Shown: positions 24,317 through 62,280 of the stretch, one piece after another
Layout: every line of letters starts with the position of its first letter
Numbering within the stretch: the first letter of the stretch is position 1
Assembly: GCF_006345805.1 (NCBI RefSeq)
Contig: NC_043022.1
Location: forward strand, 19,778,001 to 19,842,000
Origin: Octopus sinensis
Taxonomy: Eukaryota
Reading direction: 5' to 3'
DNA length: 64,000 nucleotides
Translations under genes and position numbers: made by a program
Notes under the pieces: model-generated
Seen by the model: the letters and a program-made list of their open reading frames with translations, nothing else
Database searches by the model: none
What the model was told of the DNA's origin: nothing

Positions 24317-24744
24317 TGAATGTATGTTTATATATATACATTTAATTATTTGCCTTCATTTCATGTTCATGTCTCTTCCTGTAACCTGTTGTATATATAC
24401 TTATTTGTATGTATTTGTATATATACTTATTTGTATGTATTTGCACGTACTTATTTGTATGTATATGTGTGTGTGTGCAAATTTATGTATATATATATAG
24501 TGTATGTATGCTACATTGAGGGCAAATGAAATAGCTACAATCAATTCGGATATGAATATTTGCATTTTTAATGATGTGTAAATGGAAATATATATAAACA
24601 TCCAGAAGCATATTTATTATTAATATTACTATTATTATTATTATTATTAATTTTCGTGGGTAATTATTTATTCAGAAATGGACCAGTATAGTACAAACGT
24701 TTTCCAAAGCCTCTCCGACTCCCACACACGCACACACACACACA

Positions 24745-25957
24745 CACACACACATGCATACCCACAAACACACGTAAGAAAGATGAAGATGCATATGTGG
24801 ATAAATATATGTGTGTATGTATATATACATGTGTATGGACGTATGTATGTATTTAGATATGTATGTATGGAGGCGCATGACTTAGTGGTTGTGGTGTTGG
24901 ACTCGTGAGCGTAATATTGTTCTTTCGATTCCTGGACCGCCCGATATAGTGTTCTCGAACAAAACACTTGATAATATGTTGCTCCAGTTCACACGACAGA
25001 CAAAAGTAAATGTTCCAGCGACGGATCGGAGTCCCGTCCAGGAAGGTAGAGCGCATATACGCCAGAGAGTCCGTCAGTCTATACGAGTCTATATGACGCG
25101 CGAAGGAGCTTTGTCCATGTTACTTTATTTCTATACATAGGCGCAGACGTGGCTATGTGGTAAGAAGCTTGTTTCCCCACCACATGGTTTCCGATTCAGT
25201 CCTACAGCGTGACACCTTAGGTAGCTATCTAATATAGCTTCGGGATGACCAAAGTCTTGTGAGTGGATTTGGTGGACGAAAATTGAGAGAAGCCCGTTGT
25301 ATACACACACACACACAGAAACACACACACATACACACACACACACACACACACCACACACACACACATGCATACCCACAAACACACGTAAGAAAGATGA
25401 AGATGCATATGTGGATAAATATATGTGTGTATGTATATATACATGTGTATGGACGTATGTATGTATTTAGATATGTATGTATGGAGGCGCATGACTTAGT
25501 GGTTGTGGTGTTGGACTCGTGAGCGTAATATTGTTCTTTCGATTCCTGGACCGCCCGATATAGTGTTCTCGAACAAAACACTTGATAATATGTTGCTCCA
25601 GTTCACACGACAGACAAAAGTAAATGTTCCAGCGACGGATCGGAGTCCCGTCCAGGAAGGTAGAGCGCATATACGCCAGAGAGTCCGTCAGTCTATACGG
25701 GTCTATATGACGCGCGAAGGAGCTTTGTCCATGTTACTTTATTTCTATACATAGGCGCAGACGTGGCTATGTGGTAAGAAGCTTGTTTCCCCACCACATG
25801 GTTTCCGATTCAGTCCTACAGCGTGACACCTTAGGTAGCTATCTAATATAGCTTCGGGATGACCAAAGTCTTGTGAGTGGATTTGGTGGACGAAAATTGA
25901 GAGAAGCCCGTTGTATACACACACACACACAGAAACACACACACATACACACACACA

Positions 25958-25972
<15 letters not shown>
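24745..25972. repeat. Near-perfect 614-bp tandem duplication containing SINE B and SINE A fragments
   Basis: Identical ORFs at an offset of 614 (24889 and 25503). I spotted one substitution. Breakpoints lie in (CA)n. Confidence 0.9.
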
Positions 25973-26001
<29 letters not shown>

Positions 26002-26172
26002 TGTAGTGATGGTTTGTTGCCAACTGAATGTGGCAGTCCCAGGAAAGAGGAAAATGTTACTGCTTTCTAGCCCCATGAAACACCGTTTCCAGTTGGCCAC
26101 GTGACACAAGCTTTCTAGGCCCTTATATTTTCAAACATGGGAGATAAGCACCTCCACCCAACAAAGCCAGCA

Positions 26173-26215
26173 TCCAGAGACTAGTTTCAGAGTCATTGCT
26201 TATCATCAGTCTGGA
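26173..26215 (-). ncRNA. Minimal type I hammerhead ribozyme (family H3)
   Basis: TCCAGA-CTGATGA-taagcaatgactct-GAAAC-TA-GTC-TCTGGA gives a 6-bp stem I, palindromic stem III ACTAGT and a GUC site. Stem II is weak. Confidence 0.75.
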
Positions 26216-27485
26216 GTAGCATGGCTTGCTAGCTTAATTCATTCTTACAGGCACAAGGCCTAAATACAGAGAGGACATACAAAGACATACGGGAACAAAA
26301 AACACATGAAAAAATGAATGTAAAATGAATTAAATACAATGAAAATGAGACGGTCATCTCGGAGCAGGTCCGAGATGACCGTCTCATTTTCATTGTAATT
26401 TAATTCATTTTACATTCATTTTTTCATGTGTTTTTTGCTCCGAGATGAAACCGTGAAATCCTTTAAGTTTTTAAATTTTCATTTTAACTAAACATTTTCA
26501 GCCCCGCTCGGAGGCGAAACTGCGATTTCCCTTTTGACTTTCACCATACAATATCAAAACTTTTTTTTAAAAAACGTTCGTTCATATAGTTCCAGAATTT
26601 ACTTATTTCCTTTTTTCCTTCCTTTTTTTTCAACAGTAAGTTTAAGCAAATGTTTTTCACACAGTTTCTAAAGTAAGTCACGAATTTTCGTCCACATTAT
26701 TCACCACCGAGGCGCAGGGTTCGACATCTACCTCCAGCCTCAGTCAGATCAATCTTTTACAATGTCTTTCAATTTTGAAATTCTTTCAAGTTTGGGGTGT
26801 CCTATATTTCACAATAAATTTTCTTTTTGTCTATGTTTTGCGTGTTTTCACTTTTTGTCTCTATATTTCCGCAGTTTTTGGCTTCCACGTGATTGTGTCC
26901 GTGTGTCCGTGTATTTGTGTGTCTGTGTGTTCGTTTGACTGTAATTCTACGTGTTTCGTCTGTGTGTCTATGTCTTTAGGTTTCCGTAATTCTGGGTTGT
27001 CTTGTTTCTGCCCGTTATTACTTGTGTGCATTTGCCTGTTCATGTGTTTAAGTGCCTGCTGGTCTGAATGACTCTGTACTTGTAAGTCCTTTACTGGTGA
27101 TCCTACTGGTAAATCTTCCCCGTTTCTCGTCGTGAGTTGGGTTTCCTCTTCCATTGTTTTGTGCTTCTTTAATCCCACTATCGTCACTGACTTCCTTCTC
27201 TCATCGCTTTTCTTCTTCAGCTCCGAATTAAAAATTGCTGCTATTATCTACTCTGGGTCTATCGACGGTGGGATTCTTCCCATCCTAATTCTAACAACAC
27301 CGTTTCCAGTTGGCCATGTGACACCTTTGCTGGGTGGAGGTGCTTATCTCCCCTCTTTGAAAACATAAGGACACAGAACGCTTGTGTCGCATATCCAACT
27401 GGAAACGGTGTTTCCTGTAGCTAAATAACAGTAGAATTTTCCGTTTCCTGGGACTGCCACATTCAGTTGGCAACAAACCATCACT

Positions 27486-29055
27486 TTATCGTGCAGCTAC
27501 TGTTTAAATTTCTCTAAGATATTGAAATCTATGTTTTCAAAGCGTCGACAGCTAGCAAGGCCACGCCTTTGTTATTTTTTGAAGAATTCTAGCCGATTTT
27601 TTTGTGCGAAGCCGCCATTATTGGGTGGTAGTGAAACAATTGAAAAATTGAAAATTTACGCAGAGGCTACTGGAGGTCGAGTTCCCCTAGACCCACGTGT
27701 GTTGAAGTCGGAGATGATACAGTGGAATGAGAAGCTAATAAACAAATATCATGGTATGGTAAAGAAAGACGGGTCAAATATAAAAATGACCCTGCCAGTG
27801 GAGGAAAAAGGAAAATAGAAAAGAAGACGGTCATATTCAGAACATTTTTGAATGAAAATAGAAGAATGGAACACGCGCCGCAGGAAGAGATAGAAGAAAT
27901 CTTGGAAGAACAAATAGGAGACTATGACGTTCTTTACAAGAGGAAAGATATGTCGATAGTAGTAACCTGTGTATCAGAAGAGGAGGCGATAAAACCCGAC
28001 AACAGGCTGATACAGGAAGAAAAATGGACGTTGATGCTAAACTTTGGGCAAAAGAATTGTTAGAATTAGGGTGGGATGAATCCCACCGTCGATAGACCCA
28101 GAGTAGATAATAGCAGCAATTTTTAATTCGGAGCTGAAGAAGAAAGGCGAAGAGAGAAGGAAGTCACCGATGATAGTGGGATTAAAGAAGCACAAAACAA
28201 TGGAAGAAGAAGCCCAACTCACGACGAGAAACGGGGAAGATTTACCAGTAGGATCACCAGTAAAGGACTTACAAGTACAGAGGCATTCAGACCAGCAGGC
28301 ACTTAAACACATGAACAGGCAAAAGCACACAAGTAATAACGGGCAGAAACAAGACAACCCAGAATTACGGAAACCTAAAGACATAGACACACAGACGAAA
28401 CACGTAGAATTACAGTCAAACGAACATACAGACACACAAATACACGGACACACGGACACAATCACGTGGAAGCCAAAAACTGCGGAAATATAGAGACAAA
28501 AAGTGAAAACACGCAAAACAGACAAAAGGAAAATTTATTGTGAAATATAGGACAGCCCAAACTTGAAAGAATTTCAAAATTGAAAGACATTGTGAAAGAT
28601 TGATCTGACTGAGGCTGGAGGTAGATGTCGAACCCTGCACCTCGGTGGTGAATAATGTGGACGAAAAGGAGACGAAATGGTAAGTCGTGATTTATTTTAG
28701 AAACTGTGTGAAAAATATTTGCTTAAACTTATTGCTAAAAAAAAAAAGGAAATAAGTAAATCCTGGAACTATATGAACGAATATTTTTTAAAAAGTTTTA
28801 AAATTGTATGGTGAAAGTCAAAAGGGAAGTCGCAGCTTCGCCTCCGAGAGGGTCTGGAAATATTTAGTTAAAATGTAAATTTAAAAATGGGTGGGGGGAA
28901 GGAGTTCACGGTTTCATCTCGGAGCAGGACCGAGATGAACATCTCATTTTCATTGTAACTTAATTCATTTTACATTCATTTTTTCATGTGTTTTTTGTTC
29001 CCGTATGTCTTTGTATGTCCTCTCTGTATTTAGGCCTTGTGCCTGTAATAATGAA
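27486..29055 (+). mobile_element. Internally deleted L1/Tx1-like element: ORF1-like region plus 3' end, no RT or endonuclease
   Basis: KKTVIFRTF (about 27820) and IRVG*IPPSIDPE*IIAAIL (about 28065) align by eye with the ORF1 motifs KTVVLRTY and LPLGIEPEWIE seen elsewhere in the window. A T-rich 3' UTR-like end follows. Confidence 0.6.
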
Positions 29056-29077
29056 TTAAGCTAGCAAGCCATGCTAC

Positions 29078-29120
29078 TCCAGAATGATGATAAGCAATGA
29101 CTCTGAAACTAGTCTCTGGG
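29078..29120 (+). ncRNA. Hammerhead family H3 copy with C3>A core mutation
   Basis: TCCAGA-ATGATGA...GAAAC-TA-GTC-TCTGGG. Confidence 0.6.
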
Positions 29121-29305
29121 AGTTGGCTTTGCTGGGTGGAGGTGCTTATCTCCCATGTTTGAAACTATAAGGGCCTGGAAAGCTTGTGTCACGTGGCCAA
29201 CAGGAAACGGTGTTTCATGGGGCTAGAAAGCAGTAATATTTTCTTCTTTCCTGGGACTTCCACATATGTGTGTGTGTGTATACAACGGTTCTAGGGTGAT
29301 AAAAT

Positions 29306-29341
29306 CTTTTACGTTTCGAGCCTAGGCTCTTCAACAGAAAG
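29306..29341 (-). ncRNA. Minimal hammerhead, CUGUUGA variant (H1b)
   Basis: CTTT-CTGTTGA-A-GAGCCTAGGCTC-GAAAC-GTA-AAAG. Confidence 0.65.
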
Positions 29342-40283: not shown

Positions 40284-40383
40284 NNNNNNNNNNNNNNNNN
40301 NNNNNNNNNNNNNNNNNNNNNNNNNNNNNNNNNNNNNNNNNNNNNNNNNNNNNNNNNNNNNNNNNNNNNNNNNNNNNNNNNNN
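40284..40383. other. Assembly gap (100 N)
   Basis: Run of N. Confidence 1.
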
Positions 40384-57548: not shown

Positions 57549-57689
57549 ATTAAATTGTGTTTCATTTATTTCGAATGAATATGTCGGTCGAAATAATCCA
57601 GGAAACGAACCAGCTGCATGAGCCAGCAAAAAAGTTCGCGGCAGTAGCCACTGTCTCTTCTAGAAATATTGTTATAGAAACAGAGAAGC

Positions 57690-60600
57690 TTTCCGATTTT
57701 TATCGGCGCCTAGAGAACTTTCTCGTGACTATAACGCTATTGTTGATGCGTGGAGGCGCAATGGCCCAGCGGTTAGAGCAGCGGACTCGCGGTCATAGGA
57801 TCGCGGTTTCGATTCCCAGACCGGGCGTTGTGAGTGTTTATTGAGCGAAAACACCTAAAGCTCCACGAGGCTCCGGCAGGGGATGGTGGTGATCCCTGCT
57901 GTACTTTTTCACCACAACTTTCTCTCACTCTGTTGTACCTGTATTTCAAAGGGCCGGCCTTGTCACTCTCTGTGTCACGCTGAATATCCCTGAGAACTAC
58001 GTTAATGGTACACGTGTCTGTGGAGTGCTCAGCCACTTACACGTAAATTTCACGAGCAGGCTGTTCCGTTGATTCGGATCAACCGGAACCCTCGTCGTCG
58101 TAACCGACGGAGTGCTTCCATTCCATTGTTGATGCATTCATCGATAGCGTTGGCTCGATCTATAGGAAAGTAAACTCACGTCTCGTGGATCTGCTCAAGC
58201 GGTTTCAGCTGGCAGATCGTTACAGACTTGACCATCCGAACGTCCCGGAGTGGACCTGAATGAGTGGCGACGGAAGGTTCAAGTCCTATTTAGATAGGAT
58301 AGTGATAAGAACTGGAGATAAGTCTAGTTTTAGCTGTCCACAGCTTGTCCAAATAGCATACACTGACCATAGAATGGTTACGTGTAGACTGGACATAGAT
58401 AGTACAGTTAAGAGAGGATCCGGCTACTGGAAGCTGAACAAGTCTATTTTGACTTGTGAGGCATACCTTAGCCGGATTGAGGAATTAGTACAGAGAGGGT
58501 TAACCGGCGCGGTGGTTAATAACCGATGGTGGTTCGCCCTGAAGAGAGCCATTCGTTTTGAGTCTATTAGGTTTAGCCGTAAGCTAAGACTAGATAAGGC
58601 CAGAATAGAAGGGCAACTAGTTAAAGACCTAGAGGAGGCGTTGAGGTTGGGCTCTGCATCTCACATTTTGGCAGCGAGAACGGCCTTGGACCGTCACCTC
58701 AAAGCCAAACATGAGGGGTGCAGAGTTCGGGCTAAAGTGTGCGCATTGAGCCGTGGGGGAATTAATGTTGCCGGATGGGCCCGTACGGTAGAAACCCAGC
58801 GTGGAAATGATGCCACAATTAGGTCTCTCGTGGATGACAATGGGAGTTCGGTCGATGGACGGGACGTGATGTGTGAGGCGATTCACAGGTACTTTGCCGA
58901 GTTGTTTGGGAGTGGCGGGTCGCTGGATCATGGCGAGACCCTTAGGGACTTCCTATCTGGCGGCCCGCGTCTCTCGAGAGGCTGAGTGCTGTGAAGGACC
59001 AGTCACGGCCGAGGAAGTAATTGAGGTACTGGGCGAATGCCCCGAGGAGAAGTCACCGGGTCTCGATGGTCTGCCTTATGAATTTTACAAAACTATGCCA
59101 GACTTGTTCGGGCCCCTGCTGGCCAGTGTCTACGCCAATTGGCATCAGAATGGGAGAATTCCCAAGTCTGTGAGCGGGGGGGGGGTGACGTTGATCAGGA
59201 AGGACCCGAGTAAGGCCCATAACTCTGCTGAACACAGAGTTAAAGATTTTGGCCACGGTACTAGCGAAAAGGTTGGCGCGGGTCGTGAACAAACTTATCG
59301 GGGAAGCGCAAACGTGCGCTATCCCGGGCAGGACGATTCACGACAATCTCCACCTTATACGCTACTCCTTAAAGAGGGTGGGGAAGCTTTCTGGTGCGGG
59401 GGCGGGCACTGGTACATTTAGACCATCGGTACTTGGCGGTGGTCCTCGAGAAGGCTGGCCTGGGCCCAACCTTTCGCGGTTGGATTGCTGCGTTGTACAG
59501 AGACATCGAGTCCGTCGTAAAAGTGAACGGTTTCCTTTCGAAGCCATTCAGGATCGAGCGCTCAGTGCGTCAGGGGTGTCCCCTGTCCTCGCTTTTGTAT
59601 GTACTGGCTCTCGAGCCATTATTGTGGAAGTTGGAGGCACTAGGGGGACGCACCGTATGATCTATGGTCTGGAAGAGGAGCTACGGCGTATGCGGATGAG
59701 GGCCAGCTTCCAATGGTGGAAAAGGCTATCAAAAGTTACGAGGCGGTGGAAGGAGCAAAGGTTAACAAGGACAAGTCAATTGGTTTGCAGCTCGGCACCT
59801 GGAGGGGCAAGCCGATGCCGTCCAATAACGTCGTGGGGCGTTGGACAGAAGGTCCTGTTAAGCTGCTCGGAGTCTGGTTCGGGCCAGACCTCCAGATAGA
59901 GAAAAATTGGAGTGAGGTGGCCAGCAATGGAGGAAAGCCACCCGTGAAGCGCTCTGTCTGCTGCCAGAAACCGCTAAAGGGTGGGCTAGGGATGCGTTGT
60001 CTGAGGATGCGAAAATTCGCGTTAAGGTTGAGGCAATTCTGGCTTTATCTGGATGGAGAGCAGGTGTGGTCACCGCACGTTCGATTCTACCTTCCGCAAT
60101 TAACGTCCGTAACGGACATTGGTAATTGGATCAAGCAGAGACCTAGGCTGGGGGACTGGCAATTGGAGTGCCGCCAGGCACTTCAGCTACTCTCTCGAGC
60201 GGGCAATGCCGGCAATAAGAGTTCCACCGCGGATTTCTATAGCGGGTTAGTGGAGGTTAAGTCCGAAGACGCCTTGAGGGAGACCCTGGGCTCCGATAAA
60301 ATCAGTTAATCAATCTGTTCCGGAGAACTTTCGGGCCAGGGTATCTGGACAATTACCAGAAATCTCTGGCTTGGCAGTGCTTCCGTGCGGCATTACCTGT
60401 TCGTGATAAACTGTCAAGGCACGGAAGTGGCGTCTCGCCGACATGTCCGAGGTGCGAGCAGGACAGGGAAACCGTCTTGCAAGCGGAATTAACGAGATTG
60501 ATAGTTTTCGCAGAGCAACTGTTCCCATCGATGGGAAGAGTACAGCTATCAGCTAAATCTATCATCGAGATTGTGCCGCCTCCTGCCCTTAACAGGGAAA

Positions 60601-61087
60601 GAAAGGCTTGCTTTTTCTGCGTAGTAGCAATACTGAAAGAAACAATATCGAAGACGCGTGTGAGAGGCATAGTGTCGAGTACCTTTGTATCCGGCCAGGG
60701 GTTGGTTAACTTTTTTAGTTACCACCTCTGTAATAAGATCAGGCTGGAAAAAAGGTACCTGTCACGAGACAGATTCATGAGAAGATGGAAGCCTGTGGCG
60801 AGGAAGCTGGGGGTGTTTGGCACAAGGTAAGTGGAAGCCAAAGTCAGGAAAGAAAAAGCAAGGGGTCTACCCTGGTGGTCGGATGCCTATCCTTCAGAGA
60901 AGCCATTACAAATTTCATTTGTAATGAGCAACACTTAAGTCAAAAGTTATAAACATATTTATTAAATTATTGCATATTTTAAATTGTAAATATTTAATCG
61001 CTACAGCTACTTCACCCTTTTATGTTTGTCTGTTCTTGTCCGTCCCTTCTTTGTAATGCCTTCATGGCAAATATTTATGAAATAAAG
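57690..61087 (+). mobile_element. 5'-truncated L1/Tx1-clade LINE; degenerate ORF2 (APE endonuclease, RT, zinc finger) to 60830, plus 3' UTR
   Basis: Motifs SDFYRRLE, YNAIVD, SYLDRI, TDHR, GSGYWKLN, SPGLDGLPYEFY, RQGCPLS, AYAD (about 59686) and CPRC. Multiple frameshifts. AATAAA near 61081. Confidence 0.92.
57750..58124 (+). mobile_element. tRNA(Arg)-derived SINE inserted in the Tx1 endonuclease, with 11-bp TSD
   Basis: TSD ATTGTTGATGC at 57739-57749 and 58125-58135. The endonuclease frame resumes after the insertion. Confidence 0.92.
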
Positions 61088-62280
61088 TAGCTTGCTAAGC
61101 TCATTGCGCATGCGCGAGCCAGAATTGTGTTTGACACTGAAGCAGTAAGACGCGCTTTTGAAGCCGTTTTAAATGGATTACCTATGAAACTCAGCTGTAA
61201 GGTAAGACTTTCTTTCGTCTAGTGAGGGCCTGTTGTATGTCGCAAATTATTTTTACAAAAAAAAAAGTCTGAGGCTGAGTGAAAATATTATTCACTTAAT
61301 TGTGAAAATTATTGGTTTGGTGGGCGTATCCTGCCAAATTTTTTGTTTGAAAATAGTGTTGTTCCTGTTAAGGAGTACCTAGAAGAAAATTGGAATGATT
61401 TTATTAAACTGTTTTACAATTGTGTTAAATTTTGGCCTAGAGTACCAGGTGGCCTTTGCTATCTCTTCTATCTTTGATTAAAAAAAAAAAACTTTATTGA
61501 ACTGTTGATTTTTTACTCTCTCCTTCCTTTTGTTTGGACTTTTTTTCCTCTTCCTTCTTTTTCTTTAATTATTTTATATTTTAACAACTGTAGGATCTTT
61601 TCGGTTTGAACGGCAGTTTTTAACATAATTTCCAGGTAACTAAAAAATTTTAAACTTCGTATACTGGTAGAATGTTTTTATAAAACATCTTTTTATCTTG
61701 GCTTTATTGAGAAAATTCTATAGTTTGTAAGATATTTGTTGTTGTTTTTTCTTCAATCTCTGCAATTTCAACTAATCAGTGACGTCTCTTGAGATAAAAA
61801 AACCTGTGTTGTATGAATATGTCCCTCGTTTAAGAAACAGATTGGGTTTATTTACATTTGTGAAGAAAAAAAGATACCCTTCCCTGTAACCCTGATTGAA
61901 ATGCAATAGATCGATACTAGGGTCATAATTATGGGTGACAATTTCATATAACACTGCTAGGAAAAACTGCCATTCAAACCGAAAAGATCCCATCTGTATT
62001 TTTGGAGTCTTTTAAAAAAAGCATAGCAAATAACAATGAAAAGTTGGAGTGGGAAATTACACCGCCCCAAAATTGGTTAAAAGAACTTGAAAGTAAGACG
62101 GTGGTTTTGAGGACCTACTCTAGGACCCTCGACGCCATTGCCGTTTTCAGAAAGGATATGATCGAAAGAGAGCTGGCAGAATTTAAGCCAGCGATTAAGT
62201 TTATCACTGGGGCGGGGGGTCAAATACGCAACCGTGTGGTTGCTGTTTGACTCCCCAGAAGTGGGCTGTGAATTTGCAAG
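61088..62280 (+). mobile_element. Second Tx1 element in tandem: 5' UTR plus ORF1 N-terminus
   Basis: 5' UTR motifs 'tgcgcatgcg', 'ggcgtatcc' and 'ggagtacct' are shared with 11545-12673. The peptide reads LEWEITPP...KTVVLRTYSRTLD...YATVWLLFD. Confidence 0.8.
61593..61990 (-). mobile_element. Merlin-like MITE with 8-bp TSD
   Basis: Both TIRs are present. Flanks CAACTGTA/CATCTGTA differ by 1 base. Confidence 0.88.

What the first reader, a model, noticed from the sequence alone, without database searches (positions are those of the whole stretch)
25908..29288. RT-less Tx1 derivative bracketed by hammerhead-associated repeat units, within a 3.4-kb diverged palindrome
Seen, on the + strand: a partial repeat unit (27328-27485), then a decayed L1/Tx1 ORF1-like region with a T-rich end (27486-29055), then a hammerhead (29078-29120) and the same unit again (29128-29264). 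An inverted copy of the right part (about 26005-27295) keeps an intact core with a GUC site and the palindromic stem III ACTAGT. The arms differ by scattered substitutions, so this does not look like a simple read fold-back. Established: minimal type I hammerheads with palindromic stem III act as dimers in PLE pseudo-LTRs and in short tandem non-LTR retrozymes, while L1/Tx1 LINEs are not known for them. Inference: either this is a composite non-autonomous retroelement (ribozyme-bounded RNA carrying gag-like cargo), or a Tx1 family inserts at the junction of ~240-bp retrozyme monomers.
Basis: partly seen in the sequence, partly recalled or inferred. Interest (0 to 1): 0.75.

Follow-up and report, generated by a model that had tools for sequence, protein, structure and literature searches.

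The report
Half-LINE parked in a ribozyme repeat
This is a broken copy of a one-gene jumping element that sits, like its relatives, at one fixed spot in a hammerhead-ribozyme repeat, a spot that is likely the repeat's transcription start, and its mirror-image arm may have formed when repeat and passenger were later copied together.

Summary
The palindrome, the hammerhead motifs and the ORF1-like cargo are real, and the inversion junction is bridged in DNA of two independent studies. The cargo (27567-29058) is a decayed ORF1-only derivative of an L1-group, Tx1-like LINE. It lies at a fixed site just 5' of the hammerhead of a ~350-bp retrozyme, with a 16-17-bp target duplication. All 30 sampled 5' ends and all 30 sampled 3' ends of this family sit on such a site, in several retrozyme types with different sequences. 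Young autonomous relatives (APE+RT) use the equivalent site (29 of 30), and empty sites are common. The site lies 57-60 nt behind an ATCAGT motif that also precedes U2 snRNA genes, so it is likely an snRNA-type start site. The inverted arm has the Penelope-type shape; whether it arose by re-copying of composite RNA or by local duplication is open. Both window hammerheads are damaged. My searches found no paper on this targeting, but this scan has reported the system several times, in this genome and others. New variant of a known kind; this locus is a dead example.

The parts
25745..26004 (+). Flanking SINE and its (CA)n tail; target context, not part of the element
   Evidence: sequence; SINE family repeats in the window
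26005..27297 (-). Inverted, 5'-truncated arm: unit 3' end, hammerhead, linker, 3' UTR and 3' part of the cassette; carries the same private 337-bp deletion as the direct copy
26173..26215 (-). Type I hammerhead, core letters intact (C3 at 26209, predicted cut after GTC at 26179), stem III palindrome ACTAGT, stem II damaged
26219..26234 (-). Linker copy (target duplication) in the inverted arm
26292..26441 (.). 150-bp fold-back inside the inverted arm, at a small hairpin of the 3' UTR
27296..27324 (-). 29-nt inverted unit fragment at the centre junction; 4-nt microhomology (TGTT) to the cassette
   Evidence: junction bridged in X5 and X7
27325..27549 (+). 5'-truncated upstream retrozyme unit (no hammerhead); the ATCAGTG motif of the family is deleted here
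27550..27566 (+). Target duplication, 5' copy (type A linker); likely the unit's start site
27567..29058 (+). Decayed ORF1-only cassette: family start codon reads TTG at 27648, frameshifts, 337-bp deletion at ~28150 removing the end of RRM2 and the CCHC knuckle, 3' UTR, AATAAA worn to AATAAT at 29047-29052
29059..29074 (+). Target duplication, 3' copy
29078..29119 (+). Type I hammerhead, broken (C3>A at 29084, stem II damaged)
29120..29265 (+). Downstream retrozyme unit body, ending 23-24 nt short of the usual family end, then (TG)n

Best explanation
The locus is a decayed ORF1-only cassette of an L1-group, Tx1-like LINE family that sits with a 16-17-bp target duplication at a fixed site just upstream of the hammerhead of a ~350-bp retrozyme; it was likely inserted there by target-primed reverse transcription using the enzyme of an autonomous relative, the site is likely the retrozyme's snRNA-type transcription start, and the inverted arm possibly formed when the loaded retrozyme was copied again by Penelope-type machinery. 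Shown: the anatomy, the duplication, the fixed site across copies and retrozyme types, empty sites, stacked cassettes, intact APE+RT relatives at the equivalent site, and the fixed distance to a motif shared with U2 genes. Inferred: (1) the retrozyme spreads through Penelope-like elements, giving tandem and 5'-inverted copies in (TA)n/(CA)n; (2) the LINE lands at +1 of the retrozyme promoter, so each full insertion would be transcribed from the borrowed promoter, starting with the duplicated linker and ending at its own AATAAA; (3) the linker is restored on both sides, so later insertions stack; (4) ORF1-only cassettes borrow ORF2 in trans; (5) read-through RNA (cassette, linker, hammerhead, unit body) can be copied from the unit's 3' end, which would give arms like this one. 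My odds by step: site-specific insertion 0.9; site is the start of transcription 0.75; promoter position rather than sequence alone guides the choice 0.5; this palindrome came from composite RNA 0.5.
For: 5' ends of the window's cassette family: 30 of 30 loci lie behind a linker (12 type A with unit, 12 type D with unit, 6 behind another cassette's 3' end). 3' ends: 30 of 30 (two are the window's arms) run into a linker, 19 then into a hammerhead unit of type A, B or D and 11 into a further cassette. Both ends carry the same linker type in 12 of 12 cassettes where both were found; 7 more rows had no 3' end found. On a tree of cassette-only DNA the host type changes 5 times, at least 3 forced by supported branches. 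Empty sites: 20 of the 30 best unit loci; 28 of 30 sampled type-F sites, of 1561 exact matches, control 0. Autonomous relative L222: ORF1 28% identical to the cassette profile, E 4e-29; ORF2 with Exo_endo_phos, RVT_1 and zf-RVT, best solved match human L1 ORF2p, E 3e-66. 29 of its 30 best 3' ends lie on the type-F linker; the other is a 5'-truncated copy at an unrelated site with an 11-bp duplication. ORF1-only and ORF2-bearing elements share arrays (L068, L172). ATCAGT lies 57-61 nt before +1 in 19 of 20 U2 genes, and it or a one-letter variant lies 57-60 nt before the duplication in types A, C, D, F, G and in type B for a full LINE; the 20th U2 gene has a LINE 3' end at +1. Inverted unit pieces lie directly 5' in 9 of 20 empty units; inverted arms that include cassette sequence occur at L117 (674 bp, 98.8%) and in the window.
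Against: No RNA data: start site, cleavage and circles are untested. ORF1-only cassettes in type B duplicate a stretch starting 65 nt from the motif, 5-8 nt off the rule. Host type is clustered on the cassette tree (5 changes against 9.5 in shuffles, 0 of 500 as low), which composite spread would also give. 12 of 20 long loci chosen from 3'-end hits showed no unit within 6.5 kb upstream, which pure insertion into units does not predict, although these copies are old and interrupted. Only one 5'-truncated cassette with an upstream linker was seen (L150/L177), and it may be a later deletion. The ORF1-only clade is separate from the ORF1 of the young full LINEs, so its actual partner is not identified. 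The arms are closer to each other (95-97%) than to any other scored copy (at most 86-90%) and share a private deletion, and no source locus was found among the 40 best candidates per search. No Penelope-like element with this terminal repeat was searched for or found.
Confidence: 0.72

Rival explanations
1. The unit of transposition is a composite, ribozyme-bounded RNA (unit plus gag-like cargo) copied by Penelope-type enzymes; a few ancient captures founded all loaded copies, and stacking comes from template switches at the short repeated linker.
For: Host type is clustered on the cassette tree. 12 of 20 long loci lack an upstream unit, and L182 joins an inverted unit end straight to a truncated cassette. 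Inverted arms containing cassette in the window and L117. A nested antisense cassette recurs in at least 5 loci (L166-L169, L183).
Against: At least 3 forced host switches; duplication follows the local unit type and even its allele in family F; young intact APE+RT elements sit at the equivalent site and make a target duplication off-target; arrays hold cassettes only 65-74% alike; the 5' and 3' units of the window differ by 15-18%, unlike copies from one circle.
Confidence: 0.15
2. Targeting is by ordinary endonuclease sequence recognition: several LINE subfamilies each cut their own sequence, which happens to lie at the start site; ORF1-only cassettes follow whichever partner carries them. 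Promoter position plays no guiding part.
For: Target choice of non-LTR elements is mainly set by the endonuclease (PMC4494074, passage). Family F was found only on the F linker (29 of 30). The G linker and U2 both begin ATCGCT. Type B shows two offsets.
Against: Six target types with little shared sequence keep a 57-60-nt distance from the same motif; one cassette family occupies types A, B and D.
Confidence: 0.4
3. The palindrome at this locus is a later local DNA event (inverted duplication by template switch, or gene conversion between an older short arm and the direct copy), not a product of retrotransposition. This concerns the arm only, not the cassette.
For: Arms share a private 337-bp deletion absent from the other scored places; arms are 95-97% alike while the 5' and 3' units are 82-85% alike; no close source copy found; 22 nt of flank also match in inverted orientation; 4-nt microhomology at the centre and an internal fold-back; a 30-kb inverted duplication with shared flanks exists elsewhere (L033/L034).
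Against: The arm ends at the usual family 3' end beside a microsatellite, as inverted arms do in empty units and as described for Penelope-like insertions (PMC8557442, passages); the flank match is SINE tail plus (CA)n, and a young family-F arm also abuts this SINE's tail (C4a).
Confidence: 0.42
4. Assembly fold-back or chance nesting of two unrelated repeats.
For: The assembly has many indels in young ORFs and a 614-bp near-perfect tandem duplication lies next to the locus. No record spans the whole palindrome.
Against: Arms differ at 3-5% of positions; contigs from two studies bridge the centre; the junctions recur in 30 of 30 loci at each end.
Confidence: 0.02

Closest known systems
Target-specific Tx1-clade LINEs: Tx1 in Tx1D, Tx1-Mar and SINEU-3 in Mariner-N4_AMi, Keno in U2 genes (PMC4494074; passages and section 15 read)
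   Same: L1-group APE+RT elements that insert into another repeat, with a ~16-bp duplication, tandem insertions sandwiching the duplication, non-autonomous passengers, and proposed transcription from the flank.
   Different: The host is a hammerhead retrozyme; several unrelated target sequences are used at one distance from a promoter-like motif; a relative inserts at U2 +1; the passenger encodes ORF1.
HAL1 (half-L1), ORF1-only L1 derivatives of mammals (PMC5753468, passage)
   Same: Encodes only ORF1 and would need ORF2 in trans.
   Different: Site-specific, Tx1-like ORF1 (two RRM-like domains and a CCHC knuckle), a diversified lineage in a mollusc, no long poly(A) tail, likely promoter borrowed from the host repeat.
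Non-LTR retrozymes of animals (PMC7229834, passages and Discussion; bioRxiv 10.64898/2026.07.22.740005, parts 1-3 of 5)
   Same: ~350-bp monomers with a type I hammerhead, tandem arrays, AT-rich, thought to be moved by Penelope-like elements.
   Different: The parts I read describe no protein-coding passengers, no LINE target site and no snRNA-like promoter motif.
Penelope-like elements and their minimal hammerheads (PMC4209133, parts 1-2 of 4; PMC8557442, passages)
   Same: Palindromic stem III for dimer folding, a U3-A8 core variant (family F here), inverted 5'-truncated copy next to the direct copy, microsatellite bias.
   Different: No RT or GIY-YIG gene in the unit; stem II is short (3-4 bp) and often flanked by an unpaired pair; no autonomous partner identified here.
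Position-specific retroelements at Pol III genes: TRE5-A, Ty3 (search listing only; mechanism recalled)
   Same: Insertion at a fixed distance from a promoter, not at one sequence (inferred here).
   Different: Here an snRNA-type promoter of another mobile element; tethering is untested.

Membership tests
Type I hammerhead | Conserved core (CUGANGA, GAAA, NUH) | tested here: met
   Left arm complete; right arm C3>A. Family copies complete.
Type I hammerhead | Stem II closed by pairs in the window copies | tested here: not met
   TAAG/CTCT in both arms gives two pairs; the family has AGAG/CTCT (17) or TGAG/CTCT (10) among 44 counted motif matches, overlapping loci counted repeatedly.
Type I hammerhead | Stems keep pairing through sequence change; palindromic stem III | tested here: met
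   Stem I TCCAGA/TCTGGA, CACACG/CGTGTG, TCTGTG/CACAGA, GCTGCA/TGTAGC; stem III ACTAGT, ACTCGAGT, ATCGCGAT, ACGCGT; core C3-G8 to U3-A8 in family F (read by eye, no shuffle control).
Type I hammerhead | Self-cleavage | not testable with these tools
   No RNA reads; single-strand folding z about -1, as expected for a dimer-type motif.
Non-LTR retrozyme | Short tandem monomers each with a type I hammerhead | tested here: met
   Arrays at ~360-bp spacing for type F; type D dimer at ~351 bp; partial tandems of type A.
Non-LTR retrozyme | Expression as linear and circular RNA | not testable with these tools
   No RNA run listed as holder.
Non-LTR retrozyme | Related terminal repeat in an autonomous Penelope-like element | not tested
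   No search aimed at a Penelope-like element with this repeat.
Penelope-type insertion | Inverted 5'-truncated copy beside the direct copy; microsatellite targets | tested here: met
   9 of 20 empty type-A units; head-to-head linker pairs in family F; 3' ends mostly in (TA)n or (CA)n.
L1 group, Tx1 clade | ORF2 with APE endonuclease and RT nearest to L1 | tested here: met
   Met by relative L222; absent from the window cassette.
L1 group, Tx1 clade | ORF1 with RRM domains and CCHC knuckle | tested here: met
   zf-CCHC over Pfam cut-off in relatives; model pLDDT 69, tandem RRM-like match by Foldseek E 1e-4, VIA Z up to 7.9, a common-fold level. The window copy lost the knuckle. ORF1 type label is recalled.
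L1 group, Tx1 clade | Target specificity with target-site duplication | tested here: met
L1 group, Tx1 clade | RT groups with named Tx1 elements rather than L1 proper | tested here: inconclusive
   The 120 listed homologues carry no Tx1 name; no tree with reference Tx1 was built. 'Tx1-like' rests on host range, ORF1 layout and specificity.
HAL1-like half-LINE | ORF1 only, amplified as such | tested here: met
   Linker-to-linker length 1.68-1.80 kb in 8 of 12, 1.48 kb in the window, longer by nested inserts in 3. No whole ORF2 follows ORF1 in 20 of 20 10-kb loci; one (L129) keeps the last third.
HAL1-like half-LINE | 3' end shared with an identified autonomous partner | tested here: inconclusive
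   Only the terminal TAATAAAGA is visibly shared; ORF1 trees apart from the young full LINEs.
snRNA-type promoter | Proximal element at fixed distance from +1, shared with U2 genes | tested here: met
   ATCAGT 57-61 nt before U2 +1 in 19 of 20; 57-60 nt before the duplication in six types. Function not tested; deleted in the window copy.

The most novel reading that the evidence does not exclude
A lineage of L1-group LINEs and its ORF1-only satellites select snRNA-type transcription start sites by position, parasitise a family of hammerhead retrozymes that carry such promoters, and are then carried to new places as passengers when Penelope-type enzymes copy the loaded retrozyme: a three-layer system in which one element uses two unrelated retrotransposition machines.
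Probability: 0.3. Interest if true: 0.75.

Novelty: new variant of a known kind. Interest (0 to 1): 0.5.

Why it matters
Site-specific LINEs are thought to choose targets mainly through the sequence preference of their endonuclease. Here closely related elements use at least six different target sequences, all at one distance from a motif shared with U2 genes, and young intact copies exist. That makes promoter-guided targeting, and the way such elements change targets, directly testable. It also gives animal retrozymes a candidate promoter, which has been missing, and suggests a way for LINE sequence to spread inside ribozyme repeats. The window locus itself is dead; its value is as an example of the ORF1-only branch and of an inverted arm that includes the passenger. 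The scan has already noted the system several times.

Tried and rejected
Rfam found no hammerhead. Pfam found nothing significant in the window's own frames, because the knuckle is deleted. Single-strand folding gave no significant z-score. I tested whether the 337-bp gap is a spliced intron; its ends are purine-rich microhomology, not a clear GT-AG pair. An RT next to ORF1 at L125 is an unrelated R2/HERO-like element nested in (GAT)n, and the one at L118 is a truncated Penelope-type RT; neither is the partner. A tight 3'-junction pattern gave only 5 exact hits, too strict for old copies. The linker census had windows too short and patterns too strict to use. The five full LINEs of the head-to-head array on C3 differ by 3-13 sites, like unlinked copies, so local amplification from one template is neither shown nor excluded. 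No RNA holder was listed; this is no evidence on expression. Read depth is far higher on the unit than on the cassette but is not a copy number. Rejected: the cargo as a Penelope or Terminon ORF (it is homologous to ORF1 of an APE+RT element); bracketing by two hammerheads (the 5' unit has none). The C-terminal domain of ORF1 (residues 372-453 of the model) was not searched alone. Literature searches that found no report of LINEs targeting retrozymes or retrozyme start sites. Repbase, Dfam, subscription papers (including Kojima and Fujiwara 2004) and supplements were not seen; a family description there would lower the novelty.
Full report
Observation. The window lies in a 2.7-Gb genome; the nearest named homologues of the cargo protein come from Octopus and Argonauta. 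The palindrome is real: 26028-27297 and 28057-29265 align at 91-94% with gaps and 94.7-97.4% by segment. Contigs from runs of two studies each bridge the centre junction in one piece (X5, X7); none spans the whole. The unit appears three times. The left hammerhead has all core letters, the right has C3>A, and both have a damaged stem II. The 5' unit has no hammerhead.

The unit. Searching with the unit gave 2276 first-look candidates against 108 for the cargo (only 40 scored in each). Among the 30 best unit loci, 2 are the window, 5 carry this cassette family upstream, 3 carry other cassettes, and 20 are empty. Sequence downstream of the unit's usual end reappears upstream of the hammerhead, so the monomer is ~345-360 bp and permuted; 9 of the 20 empty copies have an inverted piece directly 5', and most end in (TA)n or (CA)n. 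Related types B, C, D, F and G turned up beside other cassettes. Their stems change while pairing is kept, stem III is a palindrome in A, B, C, D and F, and family F has the U3-A8 core, a variant reported for Penelope-like elements (PMC4209133, parts 1-2 of 4 read). Type F has 1561 exact linker matches, in ~360-bp arrays and head-to-head pairs. This fits non-LTR retrozymes (PMC7229834, passages and Discussion; bioRxiv 10.64898/2026.07.22.740005, parts 1-3 of 5) and Penelope-type insertion shapes (PMC8557442, passages). Cleavage and circles are untested.

The cargo. Better-kept relatives encode one protein of up to ~460 aa with a zf-CCHC knuckle. A model (pLDDT 69) matches tandem RRM proteins. 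Two different ORF1 queries gave 13839 and 11920 first-look candidates. In the window the family start codon reads TTG, frames are broken, and 337 bp including the knuckle are missing. That deletion is in both arms and in no other scored place. No whole ORF2 follows ORF1 in 20 of 20 10-kb loci of this clade; L129 keeps the last third. This is the layout of HAL1 (PMC5753468, passage).

Fixed site and duplication. All 30 loci found with the cassette's 5' part begin behind a 14-17-nt linker: 12 in type A, 12 in type D, 6 behind another cassette (L007 read by eye). All 30 loci found with its 3' UTR (two are the window's arms) run from an AATAAA-like end into a linker; 19 continue into a hammerhead unit and 11 into another cassette. 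Both ends match in 12 of 12 cassettes with both ends found; 7 rows had no 3' end found. Arrays hold cassettes 65-74% alike and mix ORF1-only with ORF2-bearing elements. On a FastTree of 599 cassette-only columns the host type changes 5 times, at least 3 forced; shuffles average 9.5 and none of 500 is as low (one row of another type not counted). So host type is both switched and clustered.

The autonomous relative. A divergent ORF1 query led to young two-ORF elements. L222 has ORF1 homologous to the cassette profile (28%, E 4e-29) and a 1132-aa ORF2 with APE, RT and zf-RVT, closest among solved structures to human L1 ORF2p. No named Tx1 was among its listed homologues, so 'Tx1-like' is not a tested clade assignment. 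29 of its 30 best 3' ends lie on the F linker; the exception is a truncated copy with an 11-bp duplication at an unrelated site. 28 of 30 sampled F sites are empty. Its ORF1 groups apart from the ORF1-only clade (99/99 against 82/92), so it shows the mechanism but need not be this cassette's partner. Tx1 elements that target other transposons, with stacked insertions around a 16-bp duplication, are known (PMC4494074, passages and section 15).

Why this site. I had noted a TATA-like stretch about 30 nt upstream. Earlier notes of this scan pointed to snRNA-type promoters, so I tested U2. ATCAGT lies 57-61 nt before +1 in 19 of 20 U2 genes; the 20th has a family-G LINE 3' end at +1. The motif or a one-letter variant lies 59, 58, 59, 57, 58 and 60 nt before the duplication in types A, C, D, F, G and B (full LINE), whose target sequences differ; ORF1-only cassettes in B start at 65 (one or two loci measured per type). 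The site is therefore likely +1 of an snRNA-type promoter. Whether the promoter guides insertion or only makes such insertions successful is open. I did not test U1. The motif is deleted in the window copy.

The palindrome. The left arm starts at the family's usual 3' end beside (CA)n and runs through hammerhead and linker into the cassette, as at L117 (674 bp, 98.8%). L182 joins an inverted unit end straight to a truncated cassette, and 12 of 20 long loci show no upstream unit, while 7 keep unit and promoter. These point to copying of loaded retrozymes, but old copies decay. Against it at this locus: the arms are younger than the rest (5' and 3' units differ by 15-18%, arms by 3-5%), share a private deletion, and no close source was found (best other copies 86-90%). 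Local duplication or gene conversion is about as likely.

Verdict. A dead, ORF1-only, Tx1-like cassette at the specific site of a hammerhead retrozyme, with a Penelope-type inverted arm of uncertain origin. Nine literature searches found no report of this targeting; Repbase, Dfam, subscription papers and supplements were not seen. This scan has described the system before, in this genome and others; those notes are leads, not support. New variant of a known kind; interest 0.5.

Noticed in passing
window 24741-25354 and 25355-25968: 614-bp tandem duplication with 2 mismatches, directly left of the palindrome; recent duplication or assembly artefact.
   Followed up: no
window 29337 (-), 23792 (+), 47305 (+), 50414 (-), 51593 (+): Other minimal hammerhead-like motifs of Penelope type, some with altered cores; the one at 29337 begins the repeat that follows the right arm.
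   Followed up: no
window ~57580-61100 (+): Decayed L1-group LINE, ORF2 43-72% identical to L222 ORF2, interrupted by a SINE; its 3' flank is not one of the units seen here.
   Followed up: partly
L218-L221 (G000:C3:72.50-72.53 Mb): Five full young LINEs, each followed by a type-F unit, four on one strand and one on the other, head to head: a large version of the window's layout.
   Followed up: partly
L357 (G000:C3:19731389): 3' end of a family-G LINE at the first base of a U2 snRNA gene.
   Followed up: partly
L166-L169, L183: A second cassette lies antisense inside the window-family cassette in at least five loci, with similar right junctions.
   Followed up: partly
L125: Three different cassettes stacked on another linker type (E); the middle one is interrupted by an R2/HERO-like element in (GAT)n. 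The target of type E was not identified.
   Followed up: partly
L226-L230 (G000:C2:157.23 Mb, C9912): Arrays of full LINEs on further linker types whose flanks show no hammerhead; one has a TATA-like stretch about 30 nt upstream.
   Followed up: no
L033/L034 (G000:C5:88.07-88.10 Mb): Two near-identical loaded units about 30 kb apart in opposite orientation with shared flanks: an inverted segmental duplication.
   Followed up: no
L118: Truncated Penelope-type RT frame abutting an ORF1; three loci score alike.
   Followed up: partly
L116:2300-3679: The ORF1 model has a further confident alpha/beta domain at residues 372-453, not searched alone.
   Followed up: no
window 40284-40383: 100-base assembly gap.
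   Followed up: no
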